From positions 124,001 through 188,000 of the forward strand of contig NMRA01000308.1 of NCBI GenBank assembly GCA_002633005.1: a DNA stretch of 64,000 bases. The letters run 5' to 3'. Below the pieces are notes generated by a model. It had not been told where the DNA came from. It saw only the letters and a list, made by a program, of their open reading frames with translations, and made no database searches. The DNA is from Phoronis australis. Taxonomy: Eukaryota; Animalia; Phoronida. Shown piece by piece: positions 30,201 to 58,779 of this stretch (position 1 is the first letter of the stretch; each line of letters begins with the position of its first letter). Position numbers and translations under genes: made by a program.

Positions 30201-33200
30201 CAAACTTCAACCATGATAATTACTTGGCAGAATTCTTCAAATTCCGACAAGTATGTTGTTTTTATACATTTTTGCGTCACTAATCAATGATAAAGTAACA
30301 AGAGGTGTTCCATGAAAACTTCTATGACTGACGATCATTTATTGATTAACTCTAATATGAATCCATATCAACCAAAATGGAGGTGTATACCTATTCTTTA
30401 ACTATTCAGCACAAAATATGATGGGCAAGTGGAAAAGGAAAAAAGGAAATTTTGGAGCTTCATGGGATTTTACTGAAAACAGTACATTTGAAATGGTTAA
30501 TAGTCAACATCATCATACTAGAGTACTTAGCAAGTACTGGGTGCACTCACCTGGGCTCTAATTGTAAGTACAACTTGACAAAATTAAAATATTCCACCAC
30601 AGTTCAAATATCTTATGAAAGCCACAAAAAGTCACGCCTGGATGAACACATTTCAAACAAAACAGTTTGTGGATAGCAACATGCCAACATGACTCAACCA
30701 AGTTTACTTTTATTAGTTAATATGTTTATAAAATTAATTGTCACAACATCATTCCTGAATCTGAAAGTGTTAAAACAGGCATGTCTCACTCCTGAATCTG
30801 AAAGTGTTAAAACAGGCATGTCTCACTTGTTAACTTCATTGTTATCAAACATGATGAAAGATGAGAACCCCCAAAGCCATTGAAAATCAAACAAAATTAT
30901 CTGAATTTTAACTCCAATAATACCTTTATTCATGGCATTTTTCACACCAGTATAAAATATATGTTAAACTTTACAAGTTAAAAGTTGGTCACTGAACCGT
31001 CACTAGTACGGTTCATTTGAACCCATCCTCTAACACAATAGGTAGACAAGCAGGAAATAATTTAAAACAACTGCAAAATAATGTCACTAAAAATAAAATT
31101 TGTAGTGGATATTGGGCAAGATTTATATCTTAACAATAACCCAGACTGACACATTTAAACAAAAATAAACCTCGCATTTCACAACTTTTACCACAACTGA
31201 AACTGCAGGGACAGGTGTGAGGTACAACAATGTCTACCTGTAGAAGTCTGGTGCTTCTTATAGTATTCAGCATAACCATGGTAACGGATGGATACAGGAT
31301 GGCATCATGGCACATCAACAACTTTGGCACAAAGAAGATGGAAGATCCAATGACGATAGGAGTGATCGTCGATGTAGGTTTTATCACTAAGTGCATTTTT
31401 AACAAGGAAATTTAAGCAGTGTTGTTCGATTGCCTTGTCACTTATTGTGGCCTACATCAGTTTTTCAATGATTATTAAATACCAAGTACACAAGATGAAA
31501 TTTTTAAAATTGATATGGGAATTTCGAACCAGTGAGATCTTTACACACTATAAAGTTTTACATAGAAAGGTCCTGAATGTATATAAAGCCCCAGTCCAAT
31601 ACAGGTGGCGGGTCAACACGGACCACATCCAGCAAGATCGGGCATATGAACCATGATGGTCTGCGGTGATCCGTTGGTCCTGGAACATATGGAAAGGCCC
31701 TTGGACCTCCAGGAGGCCAATAAGGAAATTTTGTAAAGTTCAAAACTGCCACGTTCATCCATGACGGATCGGGGAGATGACGATATCCGGGCTGGTCCAT
31801 GTAACTCAAGCATAGAGTCCAAGGGCAGCCATAGCTCTTCCTAAATTGTCCGTATGAGTCCTTGCAGACCGAGAAGACTTTTAGACCCATGACAGCAGAG
31901 GTATGGTTGTCCTCGAACCCTACATGGTGGCTACACAAAGCACATCCGTACAGTTAGATTTTCAGGGCTACCATCACAAATTAATTTGGAGGTACTATGG
32001 AGACTGCTAACAGTACTACGGAGACTGTGCTAACAGTTCTACAGAGACTGTGCTAACAGTACTACGGAGACTGTGCTAACAGACAAACACTGTGAATACG
32101 TAGACTATCATCAAAGTTTGCCTGGATCATACATGTAGCTTCCGTGTTGACACCAGCACGACCGTCGAAGCTTGAAAAGAAAGCCCACAATGATCACAGA
32201 TGATCCCTACTTGATCCAGCACTTTGTGGCAATGCTGTGTTCATCCATATTGATATGGAGCTGGGGATTAAGGAAAACGGCATTTCCGAAACCAAAAATG
32301 AAAAATGCCAGGAATTTCTGCTAGTAAGAGTCAACAAATAACTAATTTTTCTCATATTCCCAAATATAACCCTCGATCTACAAATGGGTCTGAAGTGGAA
32401 TACATTTGGAGCAAAATGTGACTGAAACCCTGTTTTTACATTGTAGGTTATGAGCCGGTATGACTTAGTTTTCATACAAGGAATCAAAGATAACAGTGAA
32501 AGGGACATGTCTGATTTGAGACAGATGTTGAACCAGTGAGTATACACTTCATGACCGGAATAAAACAAATGTACAAAAAAACATCCCACATCCCGCTAAT
32601 TAAATCCGCATTTCAAGGTACTGTCAGTTCTTTCCACTCAAAACAGTAGCCATGGGGTACCCCATTTGTAAATCTATAGTGAATTCTTGATAAATAGCTC
32701 ACTATTTAGCTACATAGATTGCAAAATTTTGTTGTTTGAAATTTGTATTTTAGTACACATTCGTAATATTAAGAAATAGTAACTAATTAGCAAAATAGCA
32801 TACAATTTACGGTAAATAGCAAGTATTCTTGACAAAAAATTGACATGTAGCTTGATCACCACAGGAGGCAGTCATCTTTTTAGGATACAGTGCTTTCAAA
32901 TCTGGAGCGATTTTGTGCCTGGTTAAAATGAACAAATGAAAGCCATGTTCATTCCAAGAGTTAGAATTGTGTCCCACATCTATATAGTTTTGTACAACAC
33001 CTTAAGGTACGTGTATACACTGATCAAATCTCCAGGTTCCTAACTAAAATGAGTAAAAAGGAGTTTTAAGTAGTTAGACATGACTCTGAAAGTGACAAAA
33101 ATCGAAAAAAAGTTTTTTTTGTAGTTCGTTTTTTTAAAAAATCGTATTTTTTAATTTTCAACAAATTCAATTTTACCTAGATTTTTTTTTTCAAAATGCA

Positions 33201-36200
33201 CAGGGATCACCATCAACTATTTCCTTACGCAATATTCTACTTATCCATACCAAATATATGTACAAAATCATTATGATCTTGATTTTGTGGCATTTTTTTT
33301 GTGTGTGAGTTGGGGCAAGCACGCCACTTTTTGTCATTTGGTCACTTTCCGTCTAATAACTAAAAATCTGGTCCATTTATCAAAAAAACCCTGGCACGCG
33401 ATTTTACTTCAGTCCAAGAGGATTTCAAATTTGCAACTTTCGTTAAAATTGACCCACGTGTTGTGGAAAAATAGGCCCGAGAATCGTGTCACTATCCTGA
33501 AATCACGAGCCGAGAAAAACGGCTTTGAAGTTAAGCAGTCATCGATTGCCACTTGAGATCAAATTTCGTTCAGAATGCGTGGTCATTATGTTCCAATTTT
33601 TGTTGAAGTACTAGAAATAAAGCTGATATTTACTTCATATTTAGAAAATGTGACATACCTGTTTGTTTACAGCGTAATTTTAATCATTTTTTCGAACTTG
33701 TGATGCACGACAGACGACCAAAACAAATATGGCTGTCACGTGGGCGGAGCTTAGCGTTGATCTATTGTCTGCTGTACTGGTGTGCCGACCACCATGTGTT
33801 GATTGTTTATACGATTCATCTGAACTCTCCACTCAGTTTGTAAAAGACTCTCTAACTATATTACACAGACCTATTTGTTAGTATTCCAATATTATCATCA
33901 ACCAATATATGTGTTATATCAAATCGCCGCGTTACTGCCTACATAACAATATTGGCGACGAGGATAAAGAACTACTTTCATAGTAATGGTTCAACATTTT
34001 TACGTGCCTGTACCGAATGGACTTTGGGATAAGAAAATATCACTTTCTGCGCAAATAGCGCCGCTTGGGTGAGATTCTCAAGTTACTAAAGTTTCTTATA
34101 TTGCTTTCCTCTAAAATCGTATAATATCATGAGTTTTAATTCAGGGTTACGTTTGAATCTATGCACTAGAAAATTTTTTGTTATGTTGAACACTGGGTCA
34201 TTTCTCTAATTCTTTGGGTTACGGCCAGTGGCAAGTTAAAAATCCTCTGGGTTTGACAGCCTAGTTTCTCCACGGCACGTTCCCAGCACAGAAGCACGGT
34301 TTATCTGCGAAGACTCTACTCTGACGGCATGTAGTTGTCCATGTGTCGCGCGCGCGGCTTGTCTTCACAGCGCGTGTATGCACTCTCACCGAATCGTGCA
34401 ACACCACCCACGTCGACACTCAGCGTCCTCTCGCAAGACAACTGACCTTATATTACCGACTTCTCTTATACATGCACAATTTCTGCACGGACTCCTCAAG
34501 CTGAGTGCAGTGATGGCTTCGGTAGGGCTTGGCGTACTCAACTTAATTTTTTTGCAGATAGACAAACAGGCTCAGGCTCGGAACAGGAGCTAGTTCACCA
34601 TTTCACTACTAACTTTCACATGGTCAAAAATAGAATTGTTTTATTCTTGGTCTTGCTACAACACCAATATCAGCTGGTACATCACTCTCGATTGCCCGGT
34701 TACGCAATGCTTGTTGACAGGGTTAGATTAGAGCTAGTGTCCTTGTATATAAGCTCCGCCCCAGTTGTCAATCACTGAGCTGGTGAGCAGTCAAGCCATA
34801 TGACTTACTGAGGCTTGGTCAAATATAGCTAAAAAACAACTTTGGATTTTCAGAATGATTTTATTTTTCTTCAGTATACTGTGCATCAAGAATTAAAAAT
34901 TAAGATGATATGAAAATGTAAAAAACAGTCAAAATTAATTTTTTTGTGTATCCACCTACCTTAAAACATGGCCATATCTCATCAAGAAATTGTTGAACAT
35001 GCTATGTAATTTAGACTAAATTTCGAAATTTCAGAAATGTGTAATATATTACAAATGCATAACAGCAGGCTATTTGAATATAACTTCCTATTTCACTAAG
35101 TAGTAAACTTTTACAAATAACATAAATTCACAAGAAAAATCTTTCAAATGATATAACAAGGTATTTTAATCAATTTAAACTTGTTTTATTTACCTAAACA
35201 AATAGTGCCTCTCAGAGATAACATACAAAAACAAATACCGCTAAAAATATAACTGCCACTACACCTTTCAATAAAGACAGAAAATGATCGATGAAAAATT
35301 ATTATATCCATTACTTTTGAAATCATTTATCAAATGGCTATTAAACCAAGCTGTCTGAAATGGTCACAATTAAAATCCACTTTACAAACCTGAGTATAAG
35401 CTTGATAGAATGGCCCAAGTCTACAACAGGCCATTCACTATCATGAAAGCAATGTCCCATCTATAGCTGAGAATAGTCACTAACAGAGACTCCGCAGTTT
35501 GAGAACCAGTTTTCTCCACAAAATAGCCACCATCAAACTGGTTCTCAAAATCTGAGACTATTGTAATTAACTAATGCCACAGCTGCTATAAAAAAGTCAC
35601 CATTTCGGGGAGAGGTCTATTGCCCATAGCATAAATCTTATTCTGTCGATATTAACGCTACTGAATTGAAATTTCATAAAAAACCCTTAAACTGCAACCC
35701 TTTTTAACCCAACAAATATGAATAGAATGTGAAACCCTTCAGAGAAATTATGTTAAAAAGGGACCCATTTGAAGAGCTCCTAAGCAAAAACGAACACTTC
35801 GTAAGGAGTTTAAGAAAATTTCTATTACCTTCAATATGCGGAACTTAATAAACCTAACATCAGTTTATTTTCTCCAGGAAGTTTGACTCTAAAGTTCGCT
35901 ATGGTCTAAGGGAGTCACTTAAAGTTGGACAAAGCAATGAAACTCGAGAACAGTATGCAATATTTTTCAGGTAAGCCATAAATAAGATGTCAAATGATAT
36001 GTACTTAAATAGAGAATGCTACACGGGTCTTAGTTTTATGACAAGAGGCAAAACATCTTGCCATGTCATAAATCTGAGATGAATGTAGGATTTGCTTTCT
36101 CACATGAACCATAAAAACGATCATTTTAGCTGAAAAACTCCACATGTCTAAAACTTTCAGCCACATGACGCAACTTTCGTAAAAACATGTTTGCGCAATG

Positions 36201-39200
36201 TAAAGTAATTCAGTTGCTTTTTGATAATAGTTTTATTTTAAGCTTAACAATTGTTAATTACATTTCAGCTTTTGTAGCAAATATTGAAGTTAGAATCATC
36301 AATAGTCTTTGAAGTTATAATACTAAAATTTAAAAAATGTTGATAAATAACAGTCAGCAAGGCTTCTCTGCGCATGAGCACTGAATTGACCTTGAGACAG
36401 CGCACCTACACAGTCTCGCTGCATTTCCTGAGTTGAGGCTCGTCTCCGTTTAAATGAACCTAGATATGAAATTTGCCGCCAAAGATGGGTCCGGTTAAGA
36501 AGTTGTTTGCATTGTCCTTCCGACTGGGAGTACATACAGTTGCGACACCAGATTTGTCGAACATAACCTTGTCACCTTCTCGGAATTACGGCATTGTTTG
36601 GTTGGTGCACGTTTGGTTGTTTTAGTGTTTTTCGGAGGATAAAATGTAAGGCCTATGGATTTCTACTTTGTACTACTTTGTGATTTTCTCATGTAATACC
36701 AAAACAATTATGTACTCGGTGTTATTAACCAGTCTTGACGTAACACATTCCAGGTCATTCAAGAAAATTGCAACAACTGGATTGTGGCATTCTTCATCGT
36801 TAGTTTTAAACAAACAGGGAAGAATTCGTACCAGTAAACTAATTGTAATAAAAATTTCATAGTTTGAATTAAAAAATTAGCAATACTGTCACACTTCAAG
36901 ACGATCAATTCTCATCATAAATGCTTTGAGAAAAGCCATAGAGTAAGAGTTGAGCGATTAACTAACAGACCTCGTAATTCATTGTACGCACAAAGCAATG
37001 TACACAGAGGGCACAAAGTTTACCTATTTTAAATACAAGGCAAATTTAATTTCATAAATTTCTTAAAAATAAATAGGAAAACTTGATTTCATTATGAAAT
37101 CAAGTATATATTACACGGATATCATCAACAAACAAATGGCAAAATTCAGAGCTTTTCCTCAACGCTCTTTAGTTTTTGAAAAACTTGTAAAATGTCAGTC
37201 AACTTCAGCAATTAATTTTATTCAAATTTGAGGATTGAAACTTTTACAGAAGATTACATTGAGCAAAAGACAATGTGTTTCTTCACCAATTTACTCCACA
37301 ATACGAAAATACAATGAGAAAATATTGGGAAATTTCTCCAAAAATTGAAAATTTTAATAATTGAAATTCTACTTCTTCCTTCACAACCTTGCTTGTATTG
37401 TACGGTAGTTGCAAATGACCATTGGTCAACTTTTGGCTAATGCTAGAATAGACGTTAGCCTTTGAAATAATGATTAATAAATGCCTTCCAGAAAGGACAC
37501 CAATGCAGATATAGAGGAAACTATGGTCTATGACAAGGGTGATGGAGCATTTGAAAGGGCTCCATATGTAGCAAGGGTTAAGTCGAAGAAATTTGAAGGT
37601 AATCATACTTATATCGTAGAATTACATTGTTCTTAACTGTGTGATTAGTTGACTGACAGTGAGTCTGGTACAAAGTGACATTACAAAAGCCAATGAAACT
37701 TTTTTAACTGTAAGGCAGTCATCCTTAATAAAAAACCAATATTATTCAATTCGTAATAAAAAAATGTGTATTATATTTGCTGCATATTCCTAGATTAGAA
37801 ACATTGCCTAATACCGCTTTCATTCCCAAAGTTGCTTTAAAGACTTCCAAAATGTAATATGACTGACCTTTCAGTGGACTTTTTACAGACAGCATTACAA
37901 CATAATCTGTCCAAGTCTACTTAAGTACACAACTAGATTGTTTTTTAATACACTGAGTTGGTGTTATTAATTATCCATGATAAACGAATGGAGTGAAAGG
38001 AATTCATTGATTGGTTCACTTGGAGAGATTCAATGGAATGAAAGGAGTTCATTGATTGGTTCAATTGTAGAGATTCAATGGAATGAAAGGAGTTCATTGA
38101 TTGGTTCAATTGTAGAGATTCAATGGAGTGAAAGGAATTCATTGATTGGTTCACTTGGAGAGATTCAATGGAGTGAAAGGAGTTCATTGATTGGTTCAAT
38201 TGGAGAGATTCATCGCCACTATGGTTAACTTGATTTACTTCACTTTGAGTTTGATTTCGGCTTGACCTAATTAGTGCTATGCGGGTCTTCAAGAGACAGT
38301 TACTCTCTCATTGCAGGTCTTAGTGAATTCGCTGTCATCAGCATTCATGTGAACTCAGAGAAAGTCATCGAAGAGCTGAACCATTTACCTAGAGTAGTGG
38401 ATCTGGTGATGAAGAAATGGGGAATCGGTGATGTCATGATTGTGGGGGACATGGGGGCGGATTGTGAATACATATCAGGGAATGAATGGACCAAAGTGAC
38501 TATGAGTAGTGACACCAGTTACCTGTGGCTGATCGATGATGACGCAGACACAGCTGTTGGCAAGGAGAATTGTGCATATGACAGGTGTAGTATTAATATG
38601 TACCATGAAACCTGGCATGAAAGGCTACTGATGATGTCATTATAAATGAAATAATGTGTTTTGGAAACGTGAAAATGCAACAACCACAAATACAAGGCAA
38701 TGGCCTTATATTTGAATATAAGGACAATGTTCCTAGAAGAGTGTAATGACCACAGATATATTCAGCAAGGCACACATTCAAATATAAGGCCACAGCTGTA
38801 CATACCAGGTTTTAAAGTACAATATTACAACAACCACACTTGGTAACCAGCATTCAGGCAAAAACACAATTTAGGACAAAAATAGAATGTCATTACCTGG
38901 TATTATACAAAAAATAAATATCAAGTTTTATCTCATTGCTGGGATTGTTTGTATAACTGTTTTAAAAACTCACAATGATTAAGTGTGCATAACCAGATTT
39001 CTTATGAAAGGCAGCGAGAGACGAAACATGGTCGTGAGGGATGCAATGTTGTAGGACTGCGTTGTTTTTACATGTGCTGTTTTAGAATAATAGTACGAGG
39101 TGCTAAACTGGCGGCAGCTATCAAGACTGACAGTGCCAAGGCGTTCAACTTCAAGAGACCCCACGGACTGAAAACCAGTTCAGTAAGTTTGGTTGGTTAG

Positions 39201-42200
39201 CATACCGACAGTGGCCGTTTCGTAACTCTTGTCTTTAAAATAACAAGTATGCAGATGGTCTGGTACCTTTTGCAGCATACAAGATGTGCGCAGGCCACAG
39301 GGTCGGGTCCAGTACACAAAAAGATGTGCGCAGGCCACAGGGTAGGGCCCAGTATACATACAAGATGTGCGCAGGCCACAGGGTCGGGCCCAGTACACAT
39401 ACAAGAGTGTGCGCAGGCCACAGGGTCGGGCCCAGTACACATACAAGATGTGCTCAGGCCACAGGGTTGGGCTCAGTACACATAAAAAATGTGCGCAGGC
39501 CAAAGGGTCAGGCCCAGTACACATACAAGATGTGCACAAGCCACAGGGTCGGGCCCAGTACACACAAAAGATGTGCAAAAGCCACAGGGTGGGGCCCAGT
39601 ACACACACAAGATGTGCACAAGCCACAGGGTTGGGCCCAGTACACATACAAGATGTGCGCAGGCCACAGGGTCTGGCTCAGTACACACACAGACTCATTT
39701 GATAACTTCTATTAGTTATCAGGGTTTTTTGTAGAAGTTTTAAAATCTAGTCTTTCAAGAATTTGGTCTGATTCTTCTTTATTTTCAGGTCTTAAGTGTG
39801 ATTGCTAGTGAGATGTCAACACCATTCAACAACAATAATGAAATTGTAATGAAATGTACATCTTAGTTTCAGAGGTATCCATAAGGTACAACAGCATTGT
39901 CAGTCAGGACAAAAATAAGTCTATATACATGGCACCAAAAAGCCTAATATCCATAACATAAGAGTCATTAATTGTTGATTGAAATAAAGCTCGTGATGGC
40001 ATCACAAGTGTTGCTTGATTGTAAGTTTTGACTATAAATATTTAATGAATAACCAAGGAATGGCCCTTTGGCCAGTACAAACAAGTCCACAGATAGGTGT
40101 CTGAACATAACTTTTCACATGCACTGATGCAACTGATTATAAAGCAGAAATCACGCAGAACAGCATAGGTCCATTCATAACATTTCATTTAATTCTATTT
40201 GCTAGTATACACATGCATATTTTTTGTATTAAAAGGTTGCAATGTTATTAATAACATATTTTCAAAATTTAAACATCTTTCAGGGGTTGAAGCTAAGCCA
40301 TCACTTCCCTGTTGAAGTTCAAATACAAATGAAGGACGACAAAAAGACAACAGAAGCCAAAGCAAAAACAAGCAGTGGGGATCACTTAAGACACCAAGAA
40401 AAAGATCAGAGTCAGCCAGTAAGAGAGAAGGAAAAAACCGCAGACGTGAAGATGAGCGACAAAGATTATTTCATTGGAAAGGAGTCTGACAGAGCTCAAG
40501 AAGGAGTGATAAAGGGAGAAACATTCATGAAACAGTTTGATGACAAGTTTCTTAAAGAACAGGAGGAGATACGAAAAGAAATGGAAAGCGGTGGAGGAAA
40601 CAGTTGTGGTGCAAGCGATGAGTCGTCTGCTTCCAAGGAGAGATCAGTGGAGGCTGAGTTCGTGGAGGAGGTGTCAGCAGAAGAGGCTGAAAAACTGGCA
40701 AAGGAGTGGAGTAATATGCATCCTGACCTCAATGAAGAGGAGAGTGCTCAACAGGAACAGGAAGTAGCAAAAGGAGTTGACGATCAGGAAGCGTCAGATA
40801 AAAAAGCAGATGCACCAGCAAAAGAAGAACTTTGATAACAAGTATTTGTAGGGAAATGTAAAAGAAAAGTAATGAAGAGATGACGAAACAAACGATATTT
40901 GATGGAGGCCTCATCATATTGATATTTCTATATTTAGTTGCAGGAGCTAGGGTAATGGTCGTTCATTACTGATTGTATTGAATATAATGGATCAAGTATT
41001 TGTTAAAGATAATATTTATGGCAGAAAATATTGGAGTGGATTGCCAAAATCATGGTGGAAATATAAATAAATTTATCAATTAGCAAGATGTTGAAATAAT
41101 TTAATCGGACTTTGAAAATCTTCGCAAGATTTTTAAACAGTTATACATCTCAGTAACTAAGCCTATTATGGGATGCTTCAACTGTATCATATATTCATTC
41201 AAAGCTACGTTCAACGAGTTCAAAAAATTTAAAAGAACAGAAAGTAAGAGTGTAAAAACCAAAATTGTCACTAGAAGCAAAACTACATCCACTGGGAAAG
41301 AAAATAAATAACTTGCATCACAAATATCAGTCTATAAAATAAATAACTTGCATCATAAATATCAGTGTATAAAATTTCATGAAAATCAGTCAGTGGCTTT
41401 TCTCAACGATTTTGAACTAATACCAAAATTGCAACATTGTACAGTTATGAATGTCCACATTTTTGTCTAAACTGAAACAATTTTTGAGTCAAAATTAAAA
41501 TACATGATGATGATCTTCCTTTATTATACAAAAAAACGTCGAAATTGTGGCGCGCAATTTACCGAACAAGCACATACTTTCCACGTCCAGAGAGTGGGAA
41601 ATTTGTTAGCTTTGAAACTTAAAAAAAACGTGCTTAACCAACTAAGAAACAAAAAACTTTTTAGTTCAAAAATTCAGTGTATCTATAAGGTTTGTGCATC
41701 ATTTTTGGATGTTTCATTGGTGCAAAACGATAAGGTCAGGTGATAAATAGTCTCAATTTGAATCAATAGTGAACTAAGCTACGTACAGTCATGACCAGTT
41801 AACATCACCTTCACCGGCCTTCTGCAGTCAGGTAAAAGAACTGAACGTGCTGTTTTTGAATACGTTATTTTGGTGGCATGCTCCTTTCAAAGTGACAAAG
41901 TATTTACTTGGAGAAACTAAGCTTTCAAGAACAAATGAAAAAACAAAATGTCGCTTCTCCGGCATGTGAGATTTCAAGAGCAGAAAGTATGATGACCTGT
42001 ATGATGTGCAAGACACATGATGGGATTGTGCAAGACACATGATGGGATTGTGCAAGACACATGATGGGATTGTGCAAGACACATGATGGGATTGTGCAAG
42101 ACACATGATGGGATAGACTGTCAAAAACACATGTGGCTACCCAGAAGACACTAATATAACATTACCTAATAAAATGTCGATGTGCGTCAGGTGAAGGCTG

Positions 42201-45200
42201 ACGAGTGAAATTTTTTTCCAAGAGTAGTGATTTAAATCACATAACAACTGGCACCTTTTTACGTGTGATCATTAGGTGAGCTTTCACCAACTATTACATA
42301 CCTCTTGCTCAGCCTGTTCTTCTTGCTCAAGTAAATCTAATTGTCTTTGATACTCCATTGCTGCTTCTGGGGTCATTACCATTTGAGCTTCCTCATTCAC
42401 TCCACAGGTGTCTCTGATGGCAGCTAAAGTTCTACCAAAGTCACATCTGGAAATAAGGTAGATTTTAGGCAGACATGAGCAATAATACGACTGCAAAATT
42501 TGTCATAAGATATGGAACATGTTAGACAAAAAGATATGTACATAATTGGGTAAACAGAGGCTGAAGTCTTACCTCAAGTGATTTTGTGTAATTTCATAAC
42601 TGCCCACTTACCCATTCACTTGGAAAATAGCTTCAACAGCAGCATGGTCAATACCAGGGAAAGTCTCATACAGCTTCTGACGCTTCATACGAATAGCCAG
42701 AGAATCAGGAGAGCTTGCAAACTCAGTTTGCTGTAATGGTAATAACTTCTGTTAGATGCTATTGGTTTTTATACATTTGGCACTTCACCTAAACTGTCTT
42801 CATGTTGAAAACAGGCAATGTTGACCATCCATAACGGCATTCCATAATCTTCCAAATGTAGAGCATAACTACACGAATGAAAAAATTGAATAACAAAGGG
42901 TCAGACAACCGTGGTCTTAATACTTTTTGGAGATGTGCGCGAACCAATGTTGTTTACATGGTTTAAATTGTGCGAGTAATTATCAGAGAAGAAGGGAGCC
43001 AGACCAGGTTTTTTCAAAATACTTGGCGTTAATCCACAAAGCCAAAAAACCTGTAAAAGAATGACCTTCGCATCACATTAGTAACGTTCCCATGTATTTC
43101 AGAATCCCAGAAATTTTGTAGGAATATTCTTACATGGATTACTTCCACAAAATATTGTGTCCCCAAGAAATTGAGAATCTCAACAAGTTCTGTAGCCCCT
43201 AATGGCAGGCCTTGAGAAGTCAGTTACTTGTACAAATAAGTGACACAGTACATGCCACAATACAGTCATTGGTCCAAGTCAGTTACTTGGACAAATAAGT
43301 GATACAGTACATGCCACAATACAGTCACTGGTCCAGAGCAGCATGGCTTCGAATCTTAATTGAATAAAAAAAATGTTCATACGTGAATAATTTTTCCCAA
43401 AATTAATTCTGTGAAATATGGTGGAACTCAGAATCCCAGCAAATTTGTGTGCATGCAAAATAATTTTCCAAGTGAAAATTTACCTGAAAAAATACTGTCT
43501 GGTATCATCTCAACTGCAATGTTCACATGGGATGGGCAATAATCATTCAAGATATCCTAAATAACTACACGGTACAAGGTTGTTGGAACAGGCTGGTGGA
43601 GCACATTGCTCCGAAGATATAATCTGTGGCCTCAAGCCAGAGGTTTGATATACTACGTCAATTTGAAAAACAGTCACAGTGCCAATTATTGAAGTATGCA
43701 TTTGGATCAGCTCAAGAACATGAAAATTTGCATCTTTTAATGCTTGGTCCAAGCAATAAGCATCTTTTAACACTTGGTCTGAGCAAAATTCATCTTTTTG
43801 TCATTGAACAAATAAATTTTGTGATTTTTCCCACATCAGTGAAACAAGAGCGCCACCTATGAGTAATTTTAATTGGCTTCAGTCTGAATGTGCATTCAAT
43901 TCACAACAGTCTGAATACTATGAGTATTGCGAAATTTTCAAGATCATCCTGAAACTAAATTACAGATCCATTACATGGAGTGGACTTGGAGACAGTGTAT
44001 TTTTTCACCAAAATAAAAACCGACAATCTTTTTCTTTTCATCAAGTTTGTTTTAGTTTTTACTAATAACAGCAGATGATGACACTACGCCTTAATGAGAT
44101 TACACTACGCCTTAATGAGATTACACTACGCCTTAATGAGATGACACTACGCCTTAATGAGATTACACTATGCCTTAATGAGATTACACTATGCCTTAAT
44201 GAGATTACACTATGCCTTAATGAGATTACACTATGCCTTAATGAGATTACACTATACCTTAATGAGATGACACTACGCCTTAATGAGATTACACTACGCC
44301 TTAATGAGATGACACTATGCCTTAATGAGATTACACTGTCTTAATGAGATTACACTATGCCTTAATGAGATTACACTACGCCTTAATGAGATTACACTAC
44401 GCCTTAATGAGATGACACTACGCCTTAATGAGATTACACTATGTCTTAATGAGATTACACTATGCCTTAATGAGATTACACTACGCCTTAATGAGATGAC
44501 ACTACGCTTTAATGAGATGACACTATGCCTTAGTGAGATTACACTTCATTCATTGAAATAATCAACCTTCCACATCTCCAGTTCTTTCTCTTCAGCCATG
44601 ATCTGTCTCAGATTACTGACAGGTGCGTCAGATTGAACACTGGTTAGATGGACACCTCGCTGGACGATCCTCTGCTTATGTTCCTCGGCTTGCAAAATTC
44701 TGGCCAATTCTTCATCTGAAAATGAACAATACAACCGAATTCTCAGTTTTTGACACCACTTGAAGAGAAGAGGGCATTGACACTAATTGTGTAATAGTAA
44801 TATAATGTAAAAGGAAGTTGTCTTTTTGTATGACAGATTTCAGGTTTTGTACTCAGTAGTCTGAGTAAACTCTCATGTCTATAATAGTGTAGATAGGCTT
44901 ATAATTGGAGGGGGCCAACACCATAGCATACAGTAGTTTTCAAAATAAACTGGAACAACTTCAACTGCTTAGTCGAAATTTTGGCAAAAATAAAATTATA
45001 GCATTTTTGCTGAAATTTGATCAGAGTTCAACGTGGTGTTGTTGTGCCTAGCTAATAACTGTTTATTTATGGACAAACTTTCAGTTAGATGCCACAATTT
45101 CAACAGAGCATGAAGCATCATCTGTCGAGACCATACTGTGATTTAGCCTGAATTGAAATGGATGCCCAAAAAGAATTATGTTTACGATTTCTAAATACAA

Positions 45201-48200
45201 ACCTTTGGCAAGTTGGTCTTTATCAGGTGGTTTGGTAGACAACAGCGCCACCTTCCAGGCTTGGTGAATGGTGTAGGCCAGGCTTACAGATAGTGGAATG
45301 GTGACATCATCAGCTGCAGGAATAAGAATGTCTGTATGTTGAGCAAGTTGCATGCATACTTAATTATGCTTCTAGAAGTAAAGAGATTCATTTTGCTATC
45401 TTTGGGCTATATGATGAGAATTTCTTTAATTTATCAGTGGTTGTTAAAAATAGAAAGTGAGGTCAGACACATTGATCAGATTAAAATAAAGTATGATAAT
45501 GTTGAAGACTGTCTTGTGGAAGGCTATTTTAAAGAAAAAAGTAAACTGAACAATGTTCAATAATTTCTAAACAGTGTTTTGATCTTTCCCTGCATATTGT
45601 TTAAAGCCCGGGTTATAAAAGATAGGTCACAACACTTTAGTCAGGGGAATCTCCTTGAGGCTGCCATTGAAGAAGCTACAGAAAAGCCATAATGTGACCA
45701 CTACTACTATTGACTCTTCTAAACTAAAAGCAAAAATTCATAGTCAATGCAGCTCCTGTAATACAAACTACAAGACAGAGTTTAAATTCTTCCACACAAT
45801 GATGTGTCAATCAAAACACCACATGTGACAATCTTACCTGAACTGCCAATAGGACCAAACAGTGCTTGCAGGTGACTTGCTAACTCTGAGTCAATCTTCA
45901 ACTCTAAACTATTACCACTAGAAAAGCTTCGAGATATTTTTGGCTTTATCAAGTTTCTTTTATTCACACCACCAAGTAATTGATCCTCAGATGTGCTGTT
46001 GTTTAAACTGGAATTTCCACCGGAGTCACAGATGGGACTGAGGCGGTTCCTTAACACCGCATTGACATCGAGAGAATCATCAGACAGATCTTCTGTAGCT
46101 GTTCCACTCTTTTGTAAACTATCAAGACACAGGGAAGACAAACTCTTCGCTTGCACCAAGTTTTCAACATCTTTGTCGGCACCATCATTGCCAGTAGCAA
46201 CAGTTTCATCACCATCATTAACATCGGTATCACTACAAAGCAAGACTGCATCACATGAGGTAACATTATATTCAATGCCTGAATCAAGTAGATTATTTAT
46301 AGCAAGTTGTGTATCACCCAGACATTTCTCTAAAATGTCTGACAGATCATCCCTAGAAACCTCTGGAAAACAGCTTTGGAGGAACTCAATGTCATCACGT
46401 TGATTTTGCTCTTCCAGATCCAAAGTAGAGCACCCTTTTTCAAGCTTTAACTTGTTCGGTAGCACAGCTGAGCTTTCCCTTGAAAGGTCAAGGCGAGCTT
46501 CTGAGGGAGGCAAAGTGTGACAGGCGAAAATATCACGGGGCCAGCAACTAAGAACCTGAACGTTTTCCTGAGAAATGTCAACACCTTGGAAAATTTTGTT
46601 AGCTAGTATGACATCATTTGGTGAAGTCTGTGTAAAAGCAGTTGTGAAATGTGTAGAGGGCAATATAACTGCACTGGACTTTGTTGAATTTGGTTCACAG
46701 GAATCTGAGGACTTGGTAAAATCAGGCAAACTCCAGTCCTTATTGATCAAAACCTCCTTAACTCCTGGGTCCAACTTAGGTACAGTGAATTTTGCTGCCA
46801 TTCTTTTAGAAGATTGTTTATTTTGTTTGCTTTTCTTAACTTTCGCACTTTGAGAAGGCATAATGTTTGTTGACAAATCCTCTACTAAAGACCTAGATGC
46901 ACCATCCTGACTAAAACTAAGTAAGGCCTGTGGGCAAGCCAAAGAAACGTCGCTAGTTGTAACAATACCTTCTCTTTTCTCCTGGGAAACATCATCAACA
47001 CTGAAAACACGAACAGCACTCGTGTCCCCTAAAGATGCATAAATGGACTGTTCCGAAACACACAGCACCTTCTTGTCATTATAACTTAACTTGGATAAAA
47101 CAATGTCCTGGAGACAAGGAACTTGAAATATCCTTCCCCCACACGGAGATGACACAGTATCACCACATGCTTTGATATCACCAACAACTGCACGAGAATT
47201 TTCCGCTGAAGATTCACTGGCTGTGTTTTTATTACCATTCTTTTTGTTTCTTCTAGGTTTTGGGTCTTCCCAACTGATGTCACTTGTTGAATTTTGCCTA
47301 CTGACTGTAGCGCCACCTGTAGGGACGTCATATACAGAATACTCATGGTCACTTTTCCAATAATTGTCTTCTGCAACACAATGAGATTTGCAATAGGCAT
47401 CAAGGTCTTCGTCCAAGCTGCATATTTGTTCAGGAGTATGGCTATCATTGTCACTAACGCTAGCACCACTTTGCAGATTCATGCACGTTTCAGAAGACAC
47501 TGGCAAATCTTTCTCAGAACTACTTTTATGATTTTCAGAAACACCAAGTCCTTGACATTCTGCGCGAGATATGGCACCTAAAGAATCATGAGGTACGGCT
47601 GAATTTGTTCCTTTTACCACGTCGGAGTTTGAATGCCGCATTTTATCATCTCCAGTGTACTTATATTTTTCAGTTCTTTTCTCTTGCTCAAGACTATTAT
47701 TATTAGACCGAGGGACATGAGAACTAGTTCTACTGTCACTGGCTGACGTCTGAAGTAATATCTTATTATTCTGGTTAACATTTTCATTTATAGATCCCTT
47801 GGGGCATAACTTCTGGTCAGAGGTGTTGGTGGACAGAATCTTGTCCACAGTCAAATTGTGCTCAAATCTCTCCAGCATGTTCTTAATGGATTCAATGGGA
47901 ACTCCATGCGTATTTCGCCTAAAATAAAAAAAAAACGTTTACAACAGGTGGCAGTCACTGAATCGAGAGAAATCAGAACAAAACTCCAAACTCATTGACT
48001 TCCATTTCAAATAATTTTTCTGAGGGAAACATTTTCACTGAAGTCGAATTGTGGTATTAAACAGGGCTTGGAATGACCAATGACAAAATACGCGGAAAAT
48101 TTTACGGCCCAAATCATGCCCGATAACCAGCCTTTGAAATGGTCAATGTGAACCTAAAAAAAAAAAAAGTTGCATGCGTCTGCGTCCTTTTCGCTCGCCC

Positions 48201-51200
48201 GTCCACTCCCAACGCACACAAATTTCGCTGCAGAGCGGTAGTATTTGTCGCCGCGCTTAACAATAACACGAGCCGCCATTGAAAATCAGACCACGCTTTA
48301 CCCAGATGCCGGCAATGTTGACAATTGACGTTCCTCTGAAACATAAAGACTTCCGCTTTCCAAGGTGAACGTCGTCTGCAACGCCGCGGTAAGAAAGGAA
48401 TTTGCCACGGAAATTTCATATAAAATCCGATTTTTTTACGCGGAAATATTATAAAAAAAGCGGAAAGCACATTTCAAAAAAGCGGAAATCCGTGTTTCCG
48501 CGGAAAAATCCAAGCCCTGATTAAAGATGTCACCTTTCTTCACAGGTGTATTTGGTGTTCCAAAGCATCACTCTTGTGTTCCTGCATGTCTTTCGTTGAA
48601 TATGAAATTGGTGACAATAAATCACTTAGAATCCCCCTGGTGGCCACAACAACCAAACACTTGATGGGTTGCCACTGAACTAATAATGACTTGCCAGTTG
48701 TCAAGCCCAGAAATAATTTCCTGTCTAAATAAGGGGAAAAATGAGGGCACTTTTGTAACAGTAACTGGTCTCAATCAAAAGTTGATTTATGTTAAAAGGC
48801 ATGGGTCTATTGCCCCTTTAAACCTTTCGCTGATACAGGGGCAGCTCTTTTTAGGAAAGAGACTCAAACGCTTGCCTCCTTGAAATAACCTGCGAAAAAA
48901 GGAAAACTTTTCGTAGGTGTATCCATAATTCACACAAATGAAGGAGAAAATTTGGTTAAGTCAACTTTAAAGCACAAAACACAGTAAATTACAGGAAACA
49001 GCAGAAAATATACCAAAAGACAAAACATTCCAACCTCATGACTACTGCTACCTGCATTTAACTTGACTGACAAATAACAATCAGTTTTGATGAAAATACA
49101 GAGTTGCACTATGAATAATTTTCAGTTCATTTCGATCCAATTTAGGGACAGAAACCTTGTGATGAGAGTGTAATCCACAGATCAACCCTACGATCATTAC
49201 ACAGACAACATTAAAACACACAGAGACCATTCCTGACCTTCAAACATTGATTTGTTCAGTCAAGGATAAAATGATAAAAGTGCAAAAATCATGATCGCCT
49301 TCAGCAATGAATGGTCACATGAGACTAACAAATACAAGATAGGATTTCAGTGTTACATGTGTCCACAAAAGGACAATTTCTCAGCAGATTAAATCCAGAT
49401 CACAAGGTATTACTCCCTCTACTGAGAACAGAATGAAACAAAGACTTTCAATAACGTGTCTAGTCACAGATTTTCATTAAAGTATGGACAAATGAGTATA
49501 TTTGATGACATTCTATCCACACTTTAGCTGACAGAAGAACCAAAATTGTGTTACACCTCCCCCCAGGTCAAATGAGTATAATAGATGACAATCAGTCCAT
49601 ACCAAAGCTGACAGAAGAACCAAAATTGTGTTGGCCTCTCCCTCCAGGTCAAGTGAAAATACTAGATGGCAATCTGTCCACACCAAAGCCGACAGAAGAA
49701 CTGAAATTGTGTTGGCTCCACCCCCCAAACGTTAAAACGGATTGGGTCGATCTAATGAGGACTCAATGTGGACAGTGGGACGATCTAATGAGGACTCAAT
49801 GTGGACAGTGGGTAGAATATGGAGCTCAGGTGAAGTCGACGGAACTTTATGAATATTTATATCTAAGAAGGATATATACAACTGATGAGATAAATGTCAG
49901 TTACTAAGTTGGAAGGTCACCTTGCCAACTCTCTGGCTTTGTATCTCCAAGGTGTCGGCGGCTCTAACATCAAACATTTATAGTTGTACTTGTTACCCTG
50001 AAAGATTTGAACAACCACTTAACTGGAAAGCATGCACACAATCCCGTATCAGTGTAGCTTTTTCAAAGCAATTTCTGAATCTATAAAATGGGTGCAAAGC
50101 AAGTAGAGTTTTTTAGCCATTTAAGAGCAAATTAATGGAACGCAGATTAATGGCTGTTTCAACATCATTAGTGTTCAAGGTTATATTACCTTTATTACGA
50201 ATTAGCAAATCTTAAAGTTACAAGGAGCACTTTTTAGATTATGACTTGAAATGAGCAAAATTTTTTATTTAATTGTACAATCCTCACAAAAAATCAAGTC
50301 GTAAAATAAGGCAAGCTAACAATTTCTCTATGGTTATACTGTGGTCTTAATGGACCCTATTTTTGATTACACAAAATGCTTCGTTTTTTTATCTTACTTT
50401 GGAGTTGGCTATTTTAGGCCTATTGATGAAGCGCAGGGTAGAACTTCAAAACATAAAGCACACAGATGACAAACCACAGCCAAAATAATATAGTTTACAG
50501 GCCCTTGCGTCGATGTTTTGGGGAGTGGTGATTTGTACGAACGGTTAACTTCAGTCCTGGATCAAAGTTAACAGCACCAGTTAACTTCGCAGTAAACAGG
50601 TGCGTTTAATAGCGCAGCATCGATGCTACGGTGCAGTATGAACCGTCAACTTTGGTCTCATCGAAGTTATCGCCAGGTGCCACTGTTATTGTCAACAGTT
50701 ACAACGTTGAAATGCGTCCACGAATACACCGCAAACAAGGTGCTTCTTCGGGTGTTTATTTGTATCATAAAAAAGGAAATTAGATTTTGCAAAAACGTCC
50801 AATCCATACGAAAACTGGAACATGCCACCACAATCATTCCTAGAGCCGTTTGGTTGATAGCGGGGTGGACCCCAAAAAACAGGCTCGAAAACAGTACAAA
50901 TCTTCACTAGGTGGCGTAAACTACGCCGAATCCATCCGAAAATGGGAGGATATCGTCATCTCATTAATAGATGCCTATAGGCCATATTTTATGAAAATAC
51001 GTTGAGGACCTTTGAAGATACAGAGGCAAGCGTAAAAAGCTAAAATTGCCACTAGGGGGCACACCAGAAGTCGGATCCGTCCGAAAGTTAGCTCATGACA
51101 TCCCATCCATGAAAGGAGCATATGTACAAAACTTCATGAATATATGTCAAAGGGTTTTGGAGATAGAGCAGTGAACACCGGGCGGATGCCAGACGGACAG

Positions 51201-54200
51201 ATGGCCGGAGATAACGGCATAATGCGTCCACACACGTGGGCGCACAAAAAGGCAGTGTCATCGTTAACACTTGCTTATATTTTGCTCGAATAATCACCAA
51301 GTGAATTAAAAATAAGTTTTATGTCAATTGGCACATGTAAATTATCCCAAATTGTCACATTAAAAAACTCTTAGCGTGCAGGCAATGCATCAGCGCTACC
51401 TTGCAATTAGTTCGATGACAACAGCGTTACATACCATTTACTTTGATGTTCATTAACTACTGAAGCCAGTATAAAAGATTCAGTTAACTTCGCAGTTTAC
51501 GTTGACGTTTCGCTCAGACTGGAGTTAAGTCGGTATGAAAGGGCCTTACATTAAGCATTACGTTAAGCATGTTGTCAATTCAGTGCCAATATCACTGATT
51601 ATCAAAGTTTTTCTGTAATACAATTACATCTAAATGGCTAAAGAACTGGGATATGTTTTATCAAAGGACAAGCATACCAGTGTATTACAAACACAAACAA
51701 AACAAAATAAAAAACTAGCATAAATTGTCAGTGTTCATGAACCATTTTCATGAGGTGCATGCCAGAAAAGGCGTAAGGCACGAAGACTTAGGCAAGATTG
51801 GTTCTACAACTGTAAACAAAACGGGCCACAGAAGTATACAGCCTTAGTTATTGAGAACATCAAAACAAATCACCAACACAAACATGTCAATACAAACCAT
51901 TATAATATAAGGCTTGATCTCCCATGCTTCAGTATTTGTGTTGTCAATAATAACTGGAGTCCGACCACATTCGAAAGCCTTCTTCGCTGAAAATAATCAA
52001 AAGTATTGGCTTAATGTCACCAAATCGCATGAATTTATGAACAAGCACTTTTATTTTATTTTCGCTACTTAATATAAGTGCTAGCACAGGACCATGTTGA
52101 AAATGCTATTTATGCGATACGCACTACGGCAAGTCTTGTCCTGTTTAGTATACATTATGGCGTGTGTGTAGGGTTTCATTTAACCAAACTTTAACAAAAT
52201 TTAATAAAACATGAGAAATTGAAGCATGGTTAGTTGAGTTCCATCAAACAACAATATTTATAACAATGTAACAAACCCAAATGACAATTTTGGCAATTGC
52301 TTCTGTAACACGAACAACGCAGAAAGATGAAATGCGCCCATGACAGCAACGCAAACAGTGAGCTTCTAGGAGTGTTCATTAGAGTCAAAAACGGACATTA
52401 GGTGGCACAGAATATGTCATATCCATCCCAAAATGGACAGATGCTATCGCCATAACAGAAACTTTTTTGCCACATTTCAATAAAAACTGTCAAAGAACTC
52501 TGAAGATAAAGATGCAAATGTATTAACTAAAATTTCCACTAGGGGGTACGGCGGTAGTCAAAACCATCCAAAAGCTGTAGGTAGCTGTAGTCACATTTAT
52601 AATATAAAACTAATTCTTGCAAAATTTCTCCTTCAAAGGAGTGAGGAGATACAGCTGAAGAAGCTAAAAAGACAAAAATTGCCACCAGGAGGTGTCACAG
52701 TTGTCACATCTCTCCATAAATCAACGTTTTGTTATCAGGAACAAAAAATAAACTCAGACACTAAAAACAGCCACTAGGTGGTGCAAAAATACATCAAATC
52801 CATATGAAAATGGAAGACTATTGTCATCTTCTTTATAGAAATCTATTTGCCAAATTTCACGAAAATCCATCAATGAATTCCAAAAATACAAAGGCAAACA
52901 TAAACAACTAAAACTGACACTAGGGGGCACAGTGGTAGTCGAATAGGTGTGAAACAAGTCACAAAATATTTTCAGCACCGTAGGAACATGTCCGTCAAAT
53001 TTCACAAAGTTCCTACAAAAGGTTAAGGAGACACAACCGTAGACAGGAAAAAATGCTACTAGAGGGAGCCAAAGTGGTGGAACCCACCCAAATATTAATG
53101 TCAGTCGCGGCCTTCTCATCAGAAAAACAGTCAACTTACAAAACAATCCTGCAAGTAGTTTGACGGATAGCGACAAAGATGCCAAAAAATGGACTCAAAA
53201 CTGTTAAAAATCCCCACAGGGAGGCGCTTAATGTGTAAAATCTGTCCGAAAATGGAAAAGCATTGTCGTCACCTTAATAAATAAAAACATATCTGCCAAG
53301 TTTCACGAAAACCCACCAATCATCAGATTGGGCTGAAACTCGTCATCATCTGTTGTCAACTCCACAGGAACACCTCTGCCAAATTTCACAAAGTTCCTGC
53401 AAAGGGTTAAGGAGATACAGCCATGGACACAAAATGAAACAAAATCCCCACTAGAGGATGCTAGAGTAGTCGAACATGCCCAAAAATCAACAACAACTGC
53501 GGTCTTCTCATCAGAAACACATCTGCCAATCTCCATATCTGCCAATTTCCATAATCATCCTTCAAGCAGTCTGGCAGATAGAAAGGCGGATGCCAAAAAA
53601 CGGCCATGAAACTTTTAAAAAATGGCCAATAGGTGGCACAGAATCAAAAAAGACATGCGAAAATGTAAATGTGTAGTCACCTTCTTAATAGAAACCTATT
53701 AGCCAAATTTCATGAAAATCCATCCAAGAATTACGAAGATAAAGATGCAAACGTAAAAAAATAAAATTACCACTGGGGGGCACAGCAGTAGTCGGATAGG
53801 TGCAAAAGTCATTGTCATCTGTTGTTAGCTTCATAGAAAGACACCTGCCAAATCTCATCAAGATCCTGTGAGGGGTTTAAACGATACAGCTGCGGACGCC
53901 GGACTCCCAGACAGAGATGACAGCAATATGCACCCACATATAAATATGTGGGCGCATAAAAAATTATTTTAGTGATACTTTTAAATTAAGGGCACAAAAA
54001 TTTGTTCTAAGAGGAAATTCTCACAAAAGAACTTTTTTTCATTATGAAGCCTGTTCCATGGTTATGTATTTCTATCAAAATCAAGGAAATGGCTTCAAAA
54101 TTATCACAAATTCAGTGTTAAGATCAAAAGCACCAATCCACCAGTAGTCGGTGATTCTAGATGTCATAAATTAAATACCGACACCACAATAAAAATGGTT

Positions 54201-58755: not shown

Positions 58756-58779
58756 TCTTTAGGTGTTATGTGCTGCAGC

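What the first reader, a model, noticed from the sequence alone, without database searches (positions are those of the whole stretch)
31230..40835. Putative ER-resident DNase I-fold protein with a rewired active site and KEEL tail
Seen: a complete, uninterrupted 7-exon ORF (449 aa) with a hydrophobic signal peptide ([24 protein letters not shown]), a full DNase I domain, and an acidic tail of about 170 aa ending KEEL*. Established: DNase I is normally secreted; KDEL-like C-termini including KEEL mediate ER retrieval; acidic tails such as calreticulin's bind Ca2+. Aligned by eye to bovine DNase I, H134, H252, D168, D212, E78 and the C173-C209 disulfide are kept. The metal-site residues N7 (FNI->WHI), E39 (IQE->IQG), N170 (GDFN->GDMG) and D251 (SDH->SHH) are all changed, and the DNA-contact residues R9 and Y76 are lost. 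Inference: a lumenal pseudo-nuclease or chaperone, or an enzyme re-metallated through two new His ligands acting on a non-DNA phosphoester. I know of no described DNase I paralogue with this architecture.
Basis: partly seen in the sequence, partly recalled or inferred. Interest (0 to 1): 0.88.

Follow-up and report, generated by a model that had tools for sequence, protein, structure and literature searches.

The report
Metal-stripped DNase I with KEEL tag
An animal gene, spliced and expressed in some samples, encodes a DNase I-like protein that keeps its scaffold but has lost most metal-binding residues needed to cut DNA and ends in an ER-retrieval-type tag (KEEL), so it is likely a fast-evolving, non-cutting copy held inside the secretory pathway.

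Summary
The gene is real. It has seven GT-AG exons and 449 aa, and all six junctions appear in RNA. N7H, E39G, N170G and D251H are confirmed. None of 197 homologous domains has N7H, N170G or D251H; three isoforms of one gene have E39G. Radical changes hit 7 of 13 metal-site columns but 1 of 37 other conserved columns (p=1.2e-4). So the fold was kept while metal binding was dismantled: likely a pseudo-nuclease. The R9/Y76 'loss' means little, because most homologues lack them too. KEEL fits the PROSITE ER motif (chance about 8e-4). KDEL-like ends also occur on other DNase I proteins (RDEL, RVEL, RHEL, KYEL). Against a conserved chaperone: no orthologue was found (best 47% identity over exon 5), the branch is about six times the median, expression is low and patchy, and a second allele differs at 9 non-synonymous and 1 synonymous bases. 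Verdict: a new lineage-restricted variant of DNase I, probably inactive and ER-retrieved; function untested.

The parts
31160..31229 (+). 5' UTR covered by the transcript contig; no upstream ATG
   Evidence: (contig starts 31160)
31230..31373 (+). Exon 1 coding part (aa 1-48): signal peptide, first strand with H28 (bovine N7; codon 31311-31313)
31230..31292 (+). Predicted signal peptide, aa 1-21; Y22 aligns with mature residue 1 of DNase I
   Evidence: Best 11-residue hydropathy 2.95 at aa 8, the eight highest windows all start at aa 3-10; alignment; SignalP not available
32447..32535 (+). Exon 2 (89 nt): G60 (bovine E39; 32480-32482), K62 (R41)
35878..35970 (+). Exon 3 (93 nt): Q96 (R73), E102 (E78 kept; 35948-35950)
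37492..37598 (+). Exon 4 (107 nt): dismantled calcium site II, K124/G127/A132 (D99/D107/E112; 37535, 37544, 37559); R131 (R111 kept)
38317..38584 (+). Exon 5 (268 nt): H155 (H134 kept), S158 (P137), D189 (D168 kept), G191 (N170; 38454-38456), C194-C230 pair, A224 (T203), D233 (D212 kept)
39086..39182 (+). Exon 6 (97 nt)
40284..40835 (+). Exon 7 coding part: H272 (D251; 40299-40301), H273 (H252 kept), last strand, tail and stop
40335..40832 (+). 166-aa tail, predicted non-globular with a few isolated helices; net acidic only from 40566 (aa 361-449)
   Evidence: no Pfam; pLDDT 59.8, pTM 0.21, single sequence
40821..40835 (+). C-terminal KEEL and TGA stop (a second in-frame TAA follows); matches PROSITE [KRHQSA]-[DENQ]-E-L
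   Evidence: no difference listed here in the X1 transcript
40836..40951 (+). 3' UTR covered by the transcript contig

Best explanation
This is a spliced, expressed animal DNase I-family gene whose product has lost most magnesium and calcium ligands; it is likely unable to cut DNA and is predicted to cycle in the ER and early Golgi through its KEEL tag, where it would act as a non-catalytic binding or escort protein. Shown: gene structure, transcription, homology, the substitution pattern, the motif. Inferred, step by step. (1) The signal peptide delivers it to the ER and the C194-C230 disulfide forms (about 0.9). (2) Without E39, N7, N170, D251 and calcium site II it cannot hydrolyse DNA by the two-metal mechanism (about 0.85). 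(3) The KDEL receptor retrieves it, leakily (about 0.7). (4) The kept scaffold and residual pocket (R111, H134, H252, Y175, Y211) bind a tissue-specific secretory client or phosphorylated ligand without cleaving it, and the disordered tail acts as a spacer or weak calcium-binding arm (weakest step, about 0.5 given the rest). It most likely arose as a duplicate of an ordinary secreted DNase I within this animal's lineage and is still evolving fast.
For: All 6 junctions in RNA, with first mates on the strand expected for a + strand mRNA in most stranded libraries. 19 of 60 conserved columns changed against a median of 8%. Radical changes fall on 7 of 13 metal-site columns and 1 of 37 other columns, p=1.2e-4; all changes 8 of 13 vs 8 of 37, p=0.012. 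175 of 186 ungapped homologous domains have no change at nine catalytic columns. Single mutations of E39, D168 or D212 give very low activity, and sites I, II and IV are defined in PMC2987838 (passages). N170 coordinates Mg IVa (PMC9381713 passages). KEEL fits PROSITE and occurs on ER-located FOXRED2 (PMC2140024 passages) and ERp29 (PMC7506106 passages). Chance from tail composition is 8e-4. KDEL-like ends recur on DNase I proteins: P0054 RDEL, P0171 RVEL, P0073 RHEL, P0155 KYEL. The frame has stayed open over a 3.26-substitution branch, and the allelic deletion is in frame.
Against: No orthologue was found, so neither KEEL nor the pattern can be shown to be conserved. The X1 allele differs at 9 non-synonymous and 1 synonymous bases, which rejects pN/pS of 0.2 or less (p=0.004) but not neutrality (p=0.38); no control gene was laid. 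Expression is low in X2, lower in X3 and absent in X4. KEEL is leaky. No client or ligand was identified. The metal/other column classes were drawn partly after seeing the substitutions, and D251's role is recalled. Both catalytic His dyads, D168 and R111 are kept, which a different chemistry would also need.
Confidence: 0.45

Rival explanations
1. A duplicate under relaxed selection. It once kept its fold for a non-catalytic role but now drifts towards a pseudogene, and KEEL is a relic.
For: Allelic 9 non-synonymous to 1 synonymous (pN 0.0083, pS 0.0037), including I15T in the signal peptide and a 6-nt tail deletion; very long branch; no orthologues; low, patchy expression.
Against: Open 1,347-nt frame and correct splicing in at least two studies. 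Only 1 of 37 structural conserved columns is radically changed. The three allelic changes in the core fall on columns that vary in homologues. n=10 is small.
Confidence: 0.22
2. A secreted, fast-evolving non-catalytic protein (gamete, immune or extracellular-matrix role) in which KEEL is incidental or only delays export.
For: Excess non-synonymous variation, an accelerated branch and sample-restricted expression are typical of such proteins (general knowledge). KEEL proteins can be secreted.
Against: A PROSITE motif exactly at the C-terminus has a chance of 8e-4 and there is no internal match. It is retained in the second allele. Similar ends recur in the family.
Confidence: 0.17
3. A re-metallated enzyme. 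H28 and H272, with room made by E39G, bind Zn or Mn beside the kept H134/E78, H252/D212 and D168, and hydrolyse a non-DNA phosphoester in the ER lumen.
For: Two neighbouring site residues both became His. All acid-base residues, D168 and R111 are kept. DNA-contacting R41, R73 and P137 are changed.
Against: 0 of 197 domains have His at either position. N170, a metal and phosphate ligand, became Gly. The distant calcium loop is lost too. By my arithmetic, keeping 5 of 5 acid-base residues is expected about 15% of the time at this protein's 32% change rate. No model of the site was made. The H272 codon lies where the read tool lists no differences, so it is unconfirmed in the second allele.
Confidence: 0.14
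4. An ordinary active DNase I, or a mis-assembled or mis-annotated gene.
For: The catalytic His dyads and the disulfide are intact.
Against: Junctions and most key codons agree with independent RNA; E39 mutants are nearly inactive.
Confidence: 0.02

Closest known systems
DNase I family (EC 3.1.21.1; bovine 1DNK, human 4AWN; PF03372), invertebrate deoxyribonuclease-1-like proteins
   Same: Fold homology over the whole domain (best 183.7 bits and 37% identity to Amphiura filiformis P0169); signal peptide; C173-C209; H134/E78 and H252/D212; the intron after exon 5 is shared with many animal genes (33 of 41 short hits).
   Different: Mg ligands N7, E39, N170 and D251, calcium site II and T203 are changed; 166-aa charged tail; KEEL end; branch about six times the median.
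DNase I proteins with KDEL-like ends: A. filiformis XP_072020775 (RDEL), Logan P0171 (RVEL), Lytechinus isoform X3 (KYEL), fish P0073 (RHEL); vertebrate DNase1L1L with conserved terminal 'EL' (PMC9208542)
   Same: Signal peptide plus DNase I domain plus ER-retrieval-type C-terminus.
   Different: P0054 and P0171 keep all nine catalytic columns and have tails of only about 15-20 aa. Common descent with the brittle-star group is neither shown nor rejected (p-AU 0.063). Mori et al. report no known functional motif at the DNase1L1L end.
Degenerate DNase I domains in multi-domain proteins: Lytechinus variegatus LOC121410172 domain 1 (N7S, E39G, H134K); Seison nebaliae KAI3388607 domain 3
   Same: A DNase I domain with lost catalytic residues, one sharing E39G.
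   Different: They are fused to intact domains and lose H134. This gene is a stand-alone domain that keeps both His.
ER pseudoenzymes and escorts: ERp29 (KEEL, non-catalytic PDI fold; PMC7506106); SUMF2/pFGE, iRhoms and EDEMs (roles recalled)
   Same: Enzyme fold without catalysis, kept in the early secretory pathway. This is a likeness of working principle only.
   Different: Unrelated folds; these are conserved and broadly expressed, while this gene has no detectable orthologue and patchy expression.

Membership tests
DNase I family (by descent) | Sequence homology across the DNase I domain | tested here: met
   Exon 5 vs 1DNK E=2e-19; core aligns over positions 2-259 at 183.7 bits to P0169
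DNase I family (by descent) | C173-C209 cysteine pair and signal peptide | tested here: met
   C194/C230; hydropathy and alignment only, no SignalP
DNase I family (by descent) | Animal DNase I intron position after exon 5 | tested here: met
   33 of 41 short hits end at the same phase-2 boundary
DNase I family (by descent) | Pfam PF03372 hit | tested here: inconclusive
   0 of 7 exons scanned singly hit it; the spliced protein was not scanned whole; intact homologues score only 27-49 bits
Active DNase I enzyme | Acid-base pairs H134/E78 and H252/D212, and D168 | tested here: met
Active DNase I enzyme | Active-site Mg ligands N7, E39, N170, D251 | tested here: not met
   H, G, G, H; the canonical residue is present in 192, 193, 195 and 182 of 197 domains
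Active DNase I enzyme | Structural calcium sites I and II | tested here: not met
   D99K, D107G, E112A, T203A; D201 kept. DNase1L3 is active without an ion at site II, so this alone is not disabling
Active DNase I enzyme | DNA-contact residues | tested here: inconclusive
   R111, Y175 and Y211 kept; R41K, R73Q and P137S changed; R9 and Y76 not conserved in the family
Active DNase I enzyme | Mg/Ca-dependent DNA cleavage | not testable with these tools
   needs an assay
Soluble ER-resident KDEL-class proteins | Signal peptide, no membrane segment, C-terminal PROSITE motif | tested here: met
Soluble ER-resident KDEL-class proteins | Motif conserved in orthologues | tested here: inconclusive
   No orthologue found; kept in one other allele
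Soluble ER-resident KDEL-class proteins | ER localisation that depends on the motif | not testable with these tools
   needs imaging
Calreticulin-like calcium-storage tail | Strongly acidic tail that binds calcium; broad, high expression | tested here: inconclusive
   28% D/E overall and 30% in the last 89 aa; calreticulin's higher acidity is recalled; expression low and patchy; binding untested

The most novel reading that the evidence does not exclude
A DNase I that swapped its Mg/Ca carboxylate site for a histidine (Zn/Mn) site and became an ER-lumen phosphoesterase for a non-DNA substrate. It would be the most derived member of an overlooked, repeatedly evolved class of ER-retrieved DNase I proteins (RDEL, RVEL, RHEL, KYEL, DNase1L1L 'EL').
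Probability: 0.12. Interest if true: 0.85.

Novelty: new variant of a known kind. Interest (0 to 1): 0.5.

Why it matters
DNase I proteins are treated as secreted or GPI-anchored enzymes with nearly invariant metal sites. A stand-alone, expressed copy that lost its metal ligands selectively would be a natural DNase I pseudoenzyme; none turned up in paper searches, which cover only the open library. The KDEL-like ends on intact DNase I proteins raise a cheap, testable question: do some DNase I enzymes work inside the ER, and is the unexplained conserved 'EL' of vertebrate DNase1L1L a retrieval signal? The importance is limited by the lack of orthologues and by signs of weak present-day constraint.

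Tried and rejected
No whole genome is held, so an intact paralogue could not be sought; none lies in the 64-kb window (tblastn with 10 homologues). Orthologue searches used exon 5 only: 155-2000 aa, 29 candidates, none significant; 68-217 aa, none; 808 hits, best 150 listed, top identity 47%; metagenomes, 246 pattern matches, none confirmed. The tail was checked only against Pfam. The Atlas gave no answer. The exon-plus-homologue alignment A1 was misaligned and not used. Trees join the protein with lipoprotein-like P0018/P0031; I rejected this as long-branch attraction and as evidence of transfer from bacteria, because the gene has an animal intron position. The mixture tree without them leaves it unplaced; the first careful tree did not finish. 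The HMM score includes the query and is not used. The spliced domain was not folded, so the geometry of H28/H272 is open. The run search listed no holder on record as RNA; the laid reads gave the evidence. A retrograde-trafficking toxin reading (CdtB-like, recalled) was rejected: no delivery subunit is seen, and the animal's own receptor would retain the protein. Pan et al. 1998 is not held. PMC10093444 passages did not support ER location of DNase X. Earlier scan notes held nothing relevant. Supplementary alignments of PMC9208542 were not read and may hold invertebrate sequences like this one.
Full report
Gene model. Seven exons with canonical boundaries give 449 aa ending KEEL, followed by two in-frame stops. 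An in-frame stop lies just before the ATG, and the covered 5' UTR has no ATG. A 1,532-nt contig of run X1 covers 31160-40951 and shows 6 of 6 junctions. Raw reads (18-19% of each run read) show 5 of 6 in X2, 3 of 6 in X3 and 0 of 6 in X4. Exonic reads have first mates on the minus strand, as expected for a plus-strand mRNA in most stranded libraries. Depth in the fully exonic bin is 7.2, 2.6 and 0, which by rough arithmetic is a few reads per kilobase per million in X2. The gene is expressed at a low level and not in every sample.

Homology. Exon 5 matches bovine DNase I residues 126-212 (E=2e-19). The representative search gave 808 hits; the best 150 were listed, with top identity 47%. A search with P0054 gave 2,299 hits; the best 120 were listed. 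Of 271 proteins held, 185 gave 197 near-complete domains. Bovine numbering was carried over through P0046. Of 41 short hits, 33 end exactly where exon 5 ends, with the same phase-2 intron signature; 5 continue into the family sequence and 3 are unclear. The gene therefore has animal DNase I architecture. The organism's phylum was not established.

Active site. Kept: E78, R111, H134, D168, C173, Y175, D201, C209, Y211, D212, H252. Changed: N7H, E39G, N170G, D251H, as reported, and also D99K, D107G, E112A, T203A, R41K, R73Q and P137S. Of 186 domains without gaps at nine catalytic columns, 175 have no change, 3 have one, 6 have two, 1 has three and 1 has four; several of these look like mispredicted C-termini. 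His at N7, His at D251 and Gly at N170 each occur in 0 of 197; Gly at E39 occurs in 3 of 197, all isoforms of one Lytechinus gene.

Selective loss. Among 60 columns at least 75% conserved in the first 81 domains, this protein differs at 19, against a median of 8%. Radical changes are 7 of 13 at metal-site columns, 1 of 8 at DNA-contact columns, 0 of 2 at the remaining acid-base columns and 1 of 37 elsewhere (metal vs elsewhere p=1.2e-4). Site classes come from PMC2987838 (passages) and PMC9381713 (passages), plus D251 from recall, and were fixed after I had seen the changes. The first paper states that single mutation of E39, D168 or D212 gives very low activity. The second shows N170's equivalent binding Mg. 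It also notes that DNase1L3 works without an ion at site II, so that loss alone is not fatal. The pattern is that of a fold under selection whose metal chemistry was released.

Tail and targeting. The only strongly hydrophobic stretch is aa 3-20. The tail has no Pfam hit and a single-sequence model gives no globular fold, only helices near aa 333-367 and 398-429 (pLDDT 59.8, pTM 0.21). It is balanced in aa 284-360 and acidic in aa 361-449. At 28% D/E it is more acidic than any of the 65 homologue tails of 60 aa or more (maximum 19%). KEEL fits the PROSITE motif (PMC2140024, passages); its chance from tail composition is 8e-4. ERp29's KEEL is described as leaky (PMC7506106, passages). Among the 185 proteins with near-complete domains, 1 ends in the strict motif (P0054, RDEL). 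Among all 271 held, 6 fit the extended rule: RDEL, RHEL, KYEL, RVEL and two 'EM' ends, one of which is simply the domain end. PMC9208542 (parts 1-2 of 7, section 9 and passages) reports conserved terminal 'EL' in DNase1L1L but no known motif there.

Evolution. No orthologue was found (exon 5 as query). Under a mixture model the branch is 3.26 against a median of 0.53 and its place is unresolved. Grouping with the brittle-star RDEL/RVEL clade, which holds its best-scoring hits by a small margin, is not rejected and not shown (p-AU 0.063). The X1 allele differs at 10 listed coding bases, 9 non-synonymous and 1 synonymous, plus a 6-nt in-frame deletion. This is incompatible with pN/pS of 0.2 or less (p=0.004) and compatible with neutrality. 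None of the listed changes touches a key residue or KEEL, and the three in the core are at variable columns. At least four further differences near piece ends are not listed by the tool; the H272 codon lies in such a zone. No control gene was laid.

Reading. The best-supported account is a lineage-restricted DNase I duplicate that is no longer a nuclease, is retrieved to the ER by KEEL, and acts by binding (0.45 for the whole chain, about 0.85 for loss of DNase activity, about 0.7 for retrieval). Rivals are a relaxing duplicate (0.22), a secreted fast-evolving protein (0.17), a His-remetallated phosphoesterase (0.14) and an ordinary enzyme or artefact (0.02). By descent it is a DNase I-family protein; it fails the defining metal-site test for an active DNase I. 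Paper searches (listings seen) found no described DNase I pseudoenzyme or ER-retrieved DNase I; subscription journals are mostly outside that library. Novelty: new variant of a known kind. Interest 0.5.

Noticed in passing
P0054, P0171, P0155, P0073: DNase I proteins of brittle star, sea urchin and fish end in RDEL, RVEL, KYEL and RHEL, and vertebrate DNase1L1L has a conserved terminal 'EL'. These may be unrecognised ER-retrieval signals on active DNases.
   Followed up: partly
P0003/P0155/P0156 domain 1, P0001 domain 3, P0263: Other degenerate DNase I domains: Lytechinus tandem protein (N7S, E39G, H134K), Seison third domain (four changes), and an unnamed metagenome protein with N7K, E39D, D168N.
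   Followed up: partly
window about 3338-18802, + strand: Multi-exon septin gene (PF00735 in 2 of 3 exons scanned).
   Followed up: partly
window about 44546-58758, - strand: Large multi-exon gene with a P-loop start and a CUE domain; resembles N4BP2 (label recalled).
   Followed up: partly
window 33000-35550 and 36060-36760: Intronic dispersed repeats hit by many divergent RNA reads on both strands, probably transposon remnants.
   Followed up: no
window 31992-32082, 37987-38212, 39276-39691: Intronic tandem repeats of 23, 45 and 41 bp, with 4, 5 and 10 copies.
   Followed up: no
P0018, P0031: DNase I-family proteins with lipoprotein-like N-termini that look prokaryotic and keep intact active sites.
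   Followed up: no
window about 5300-5570: Assembly gap; the window holds 276 N.
   Followed up: no
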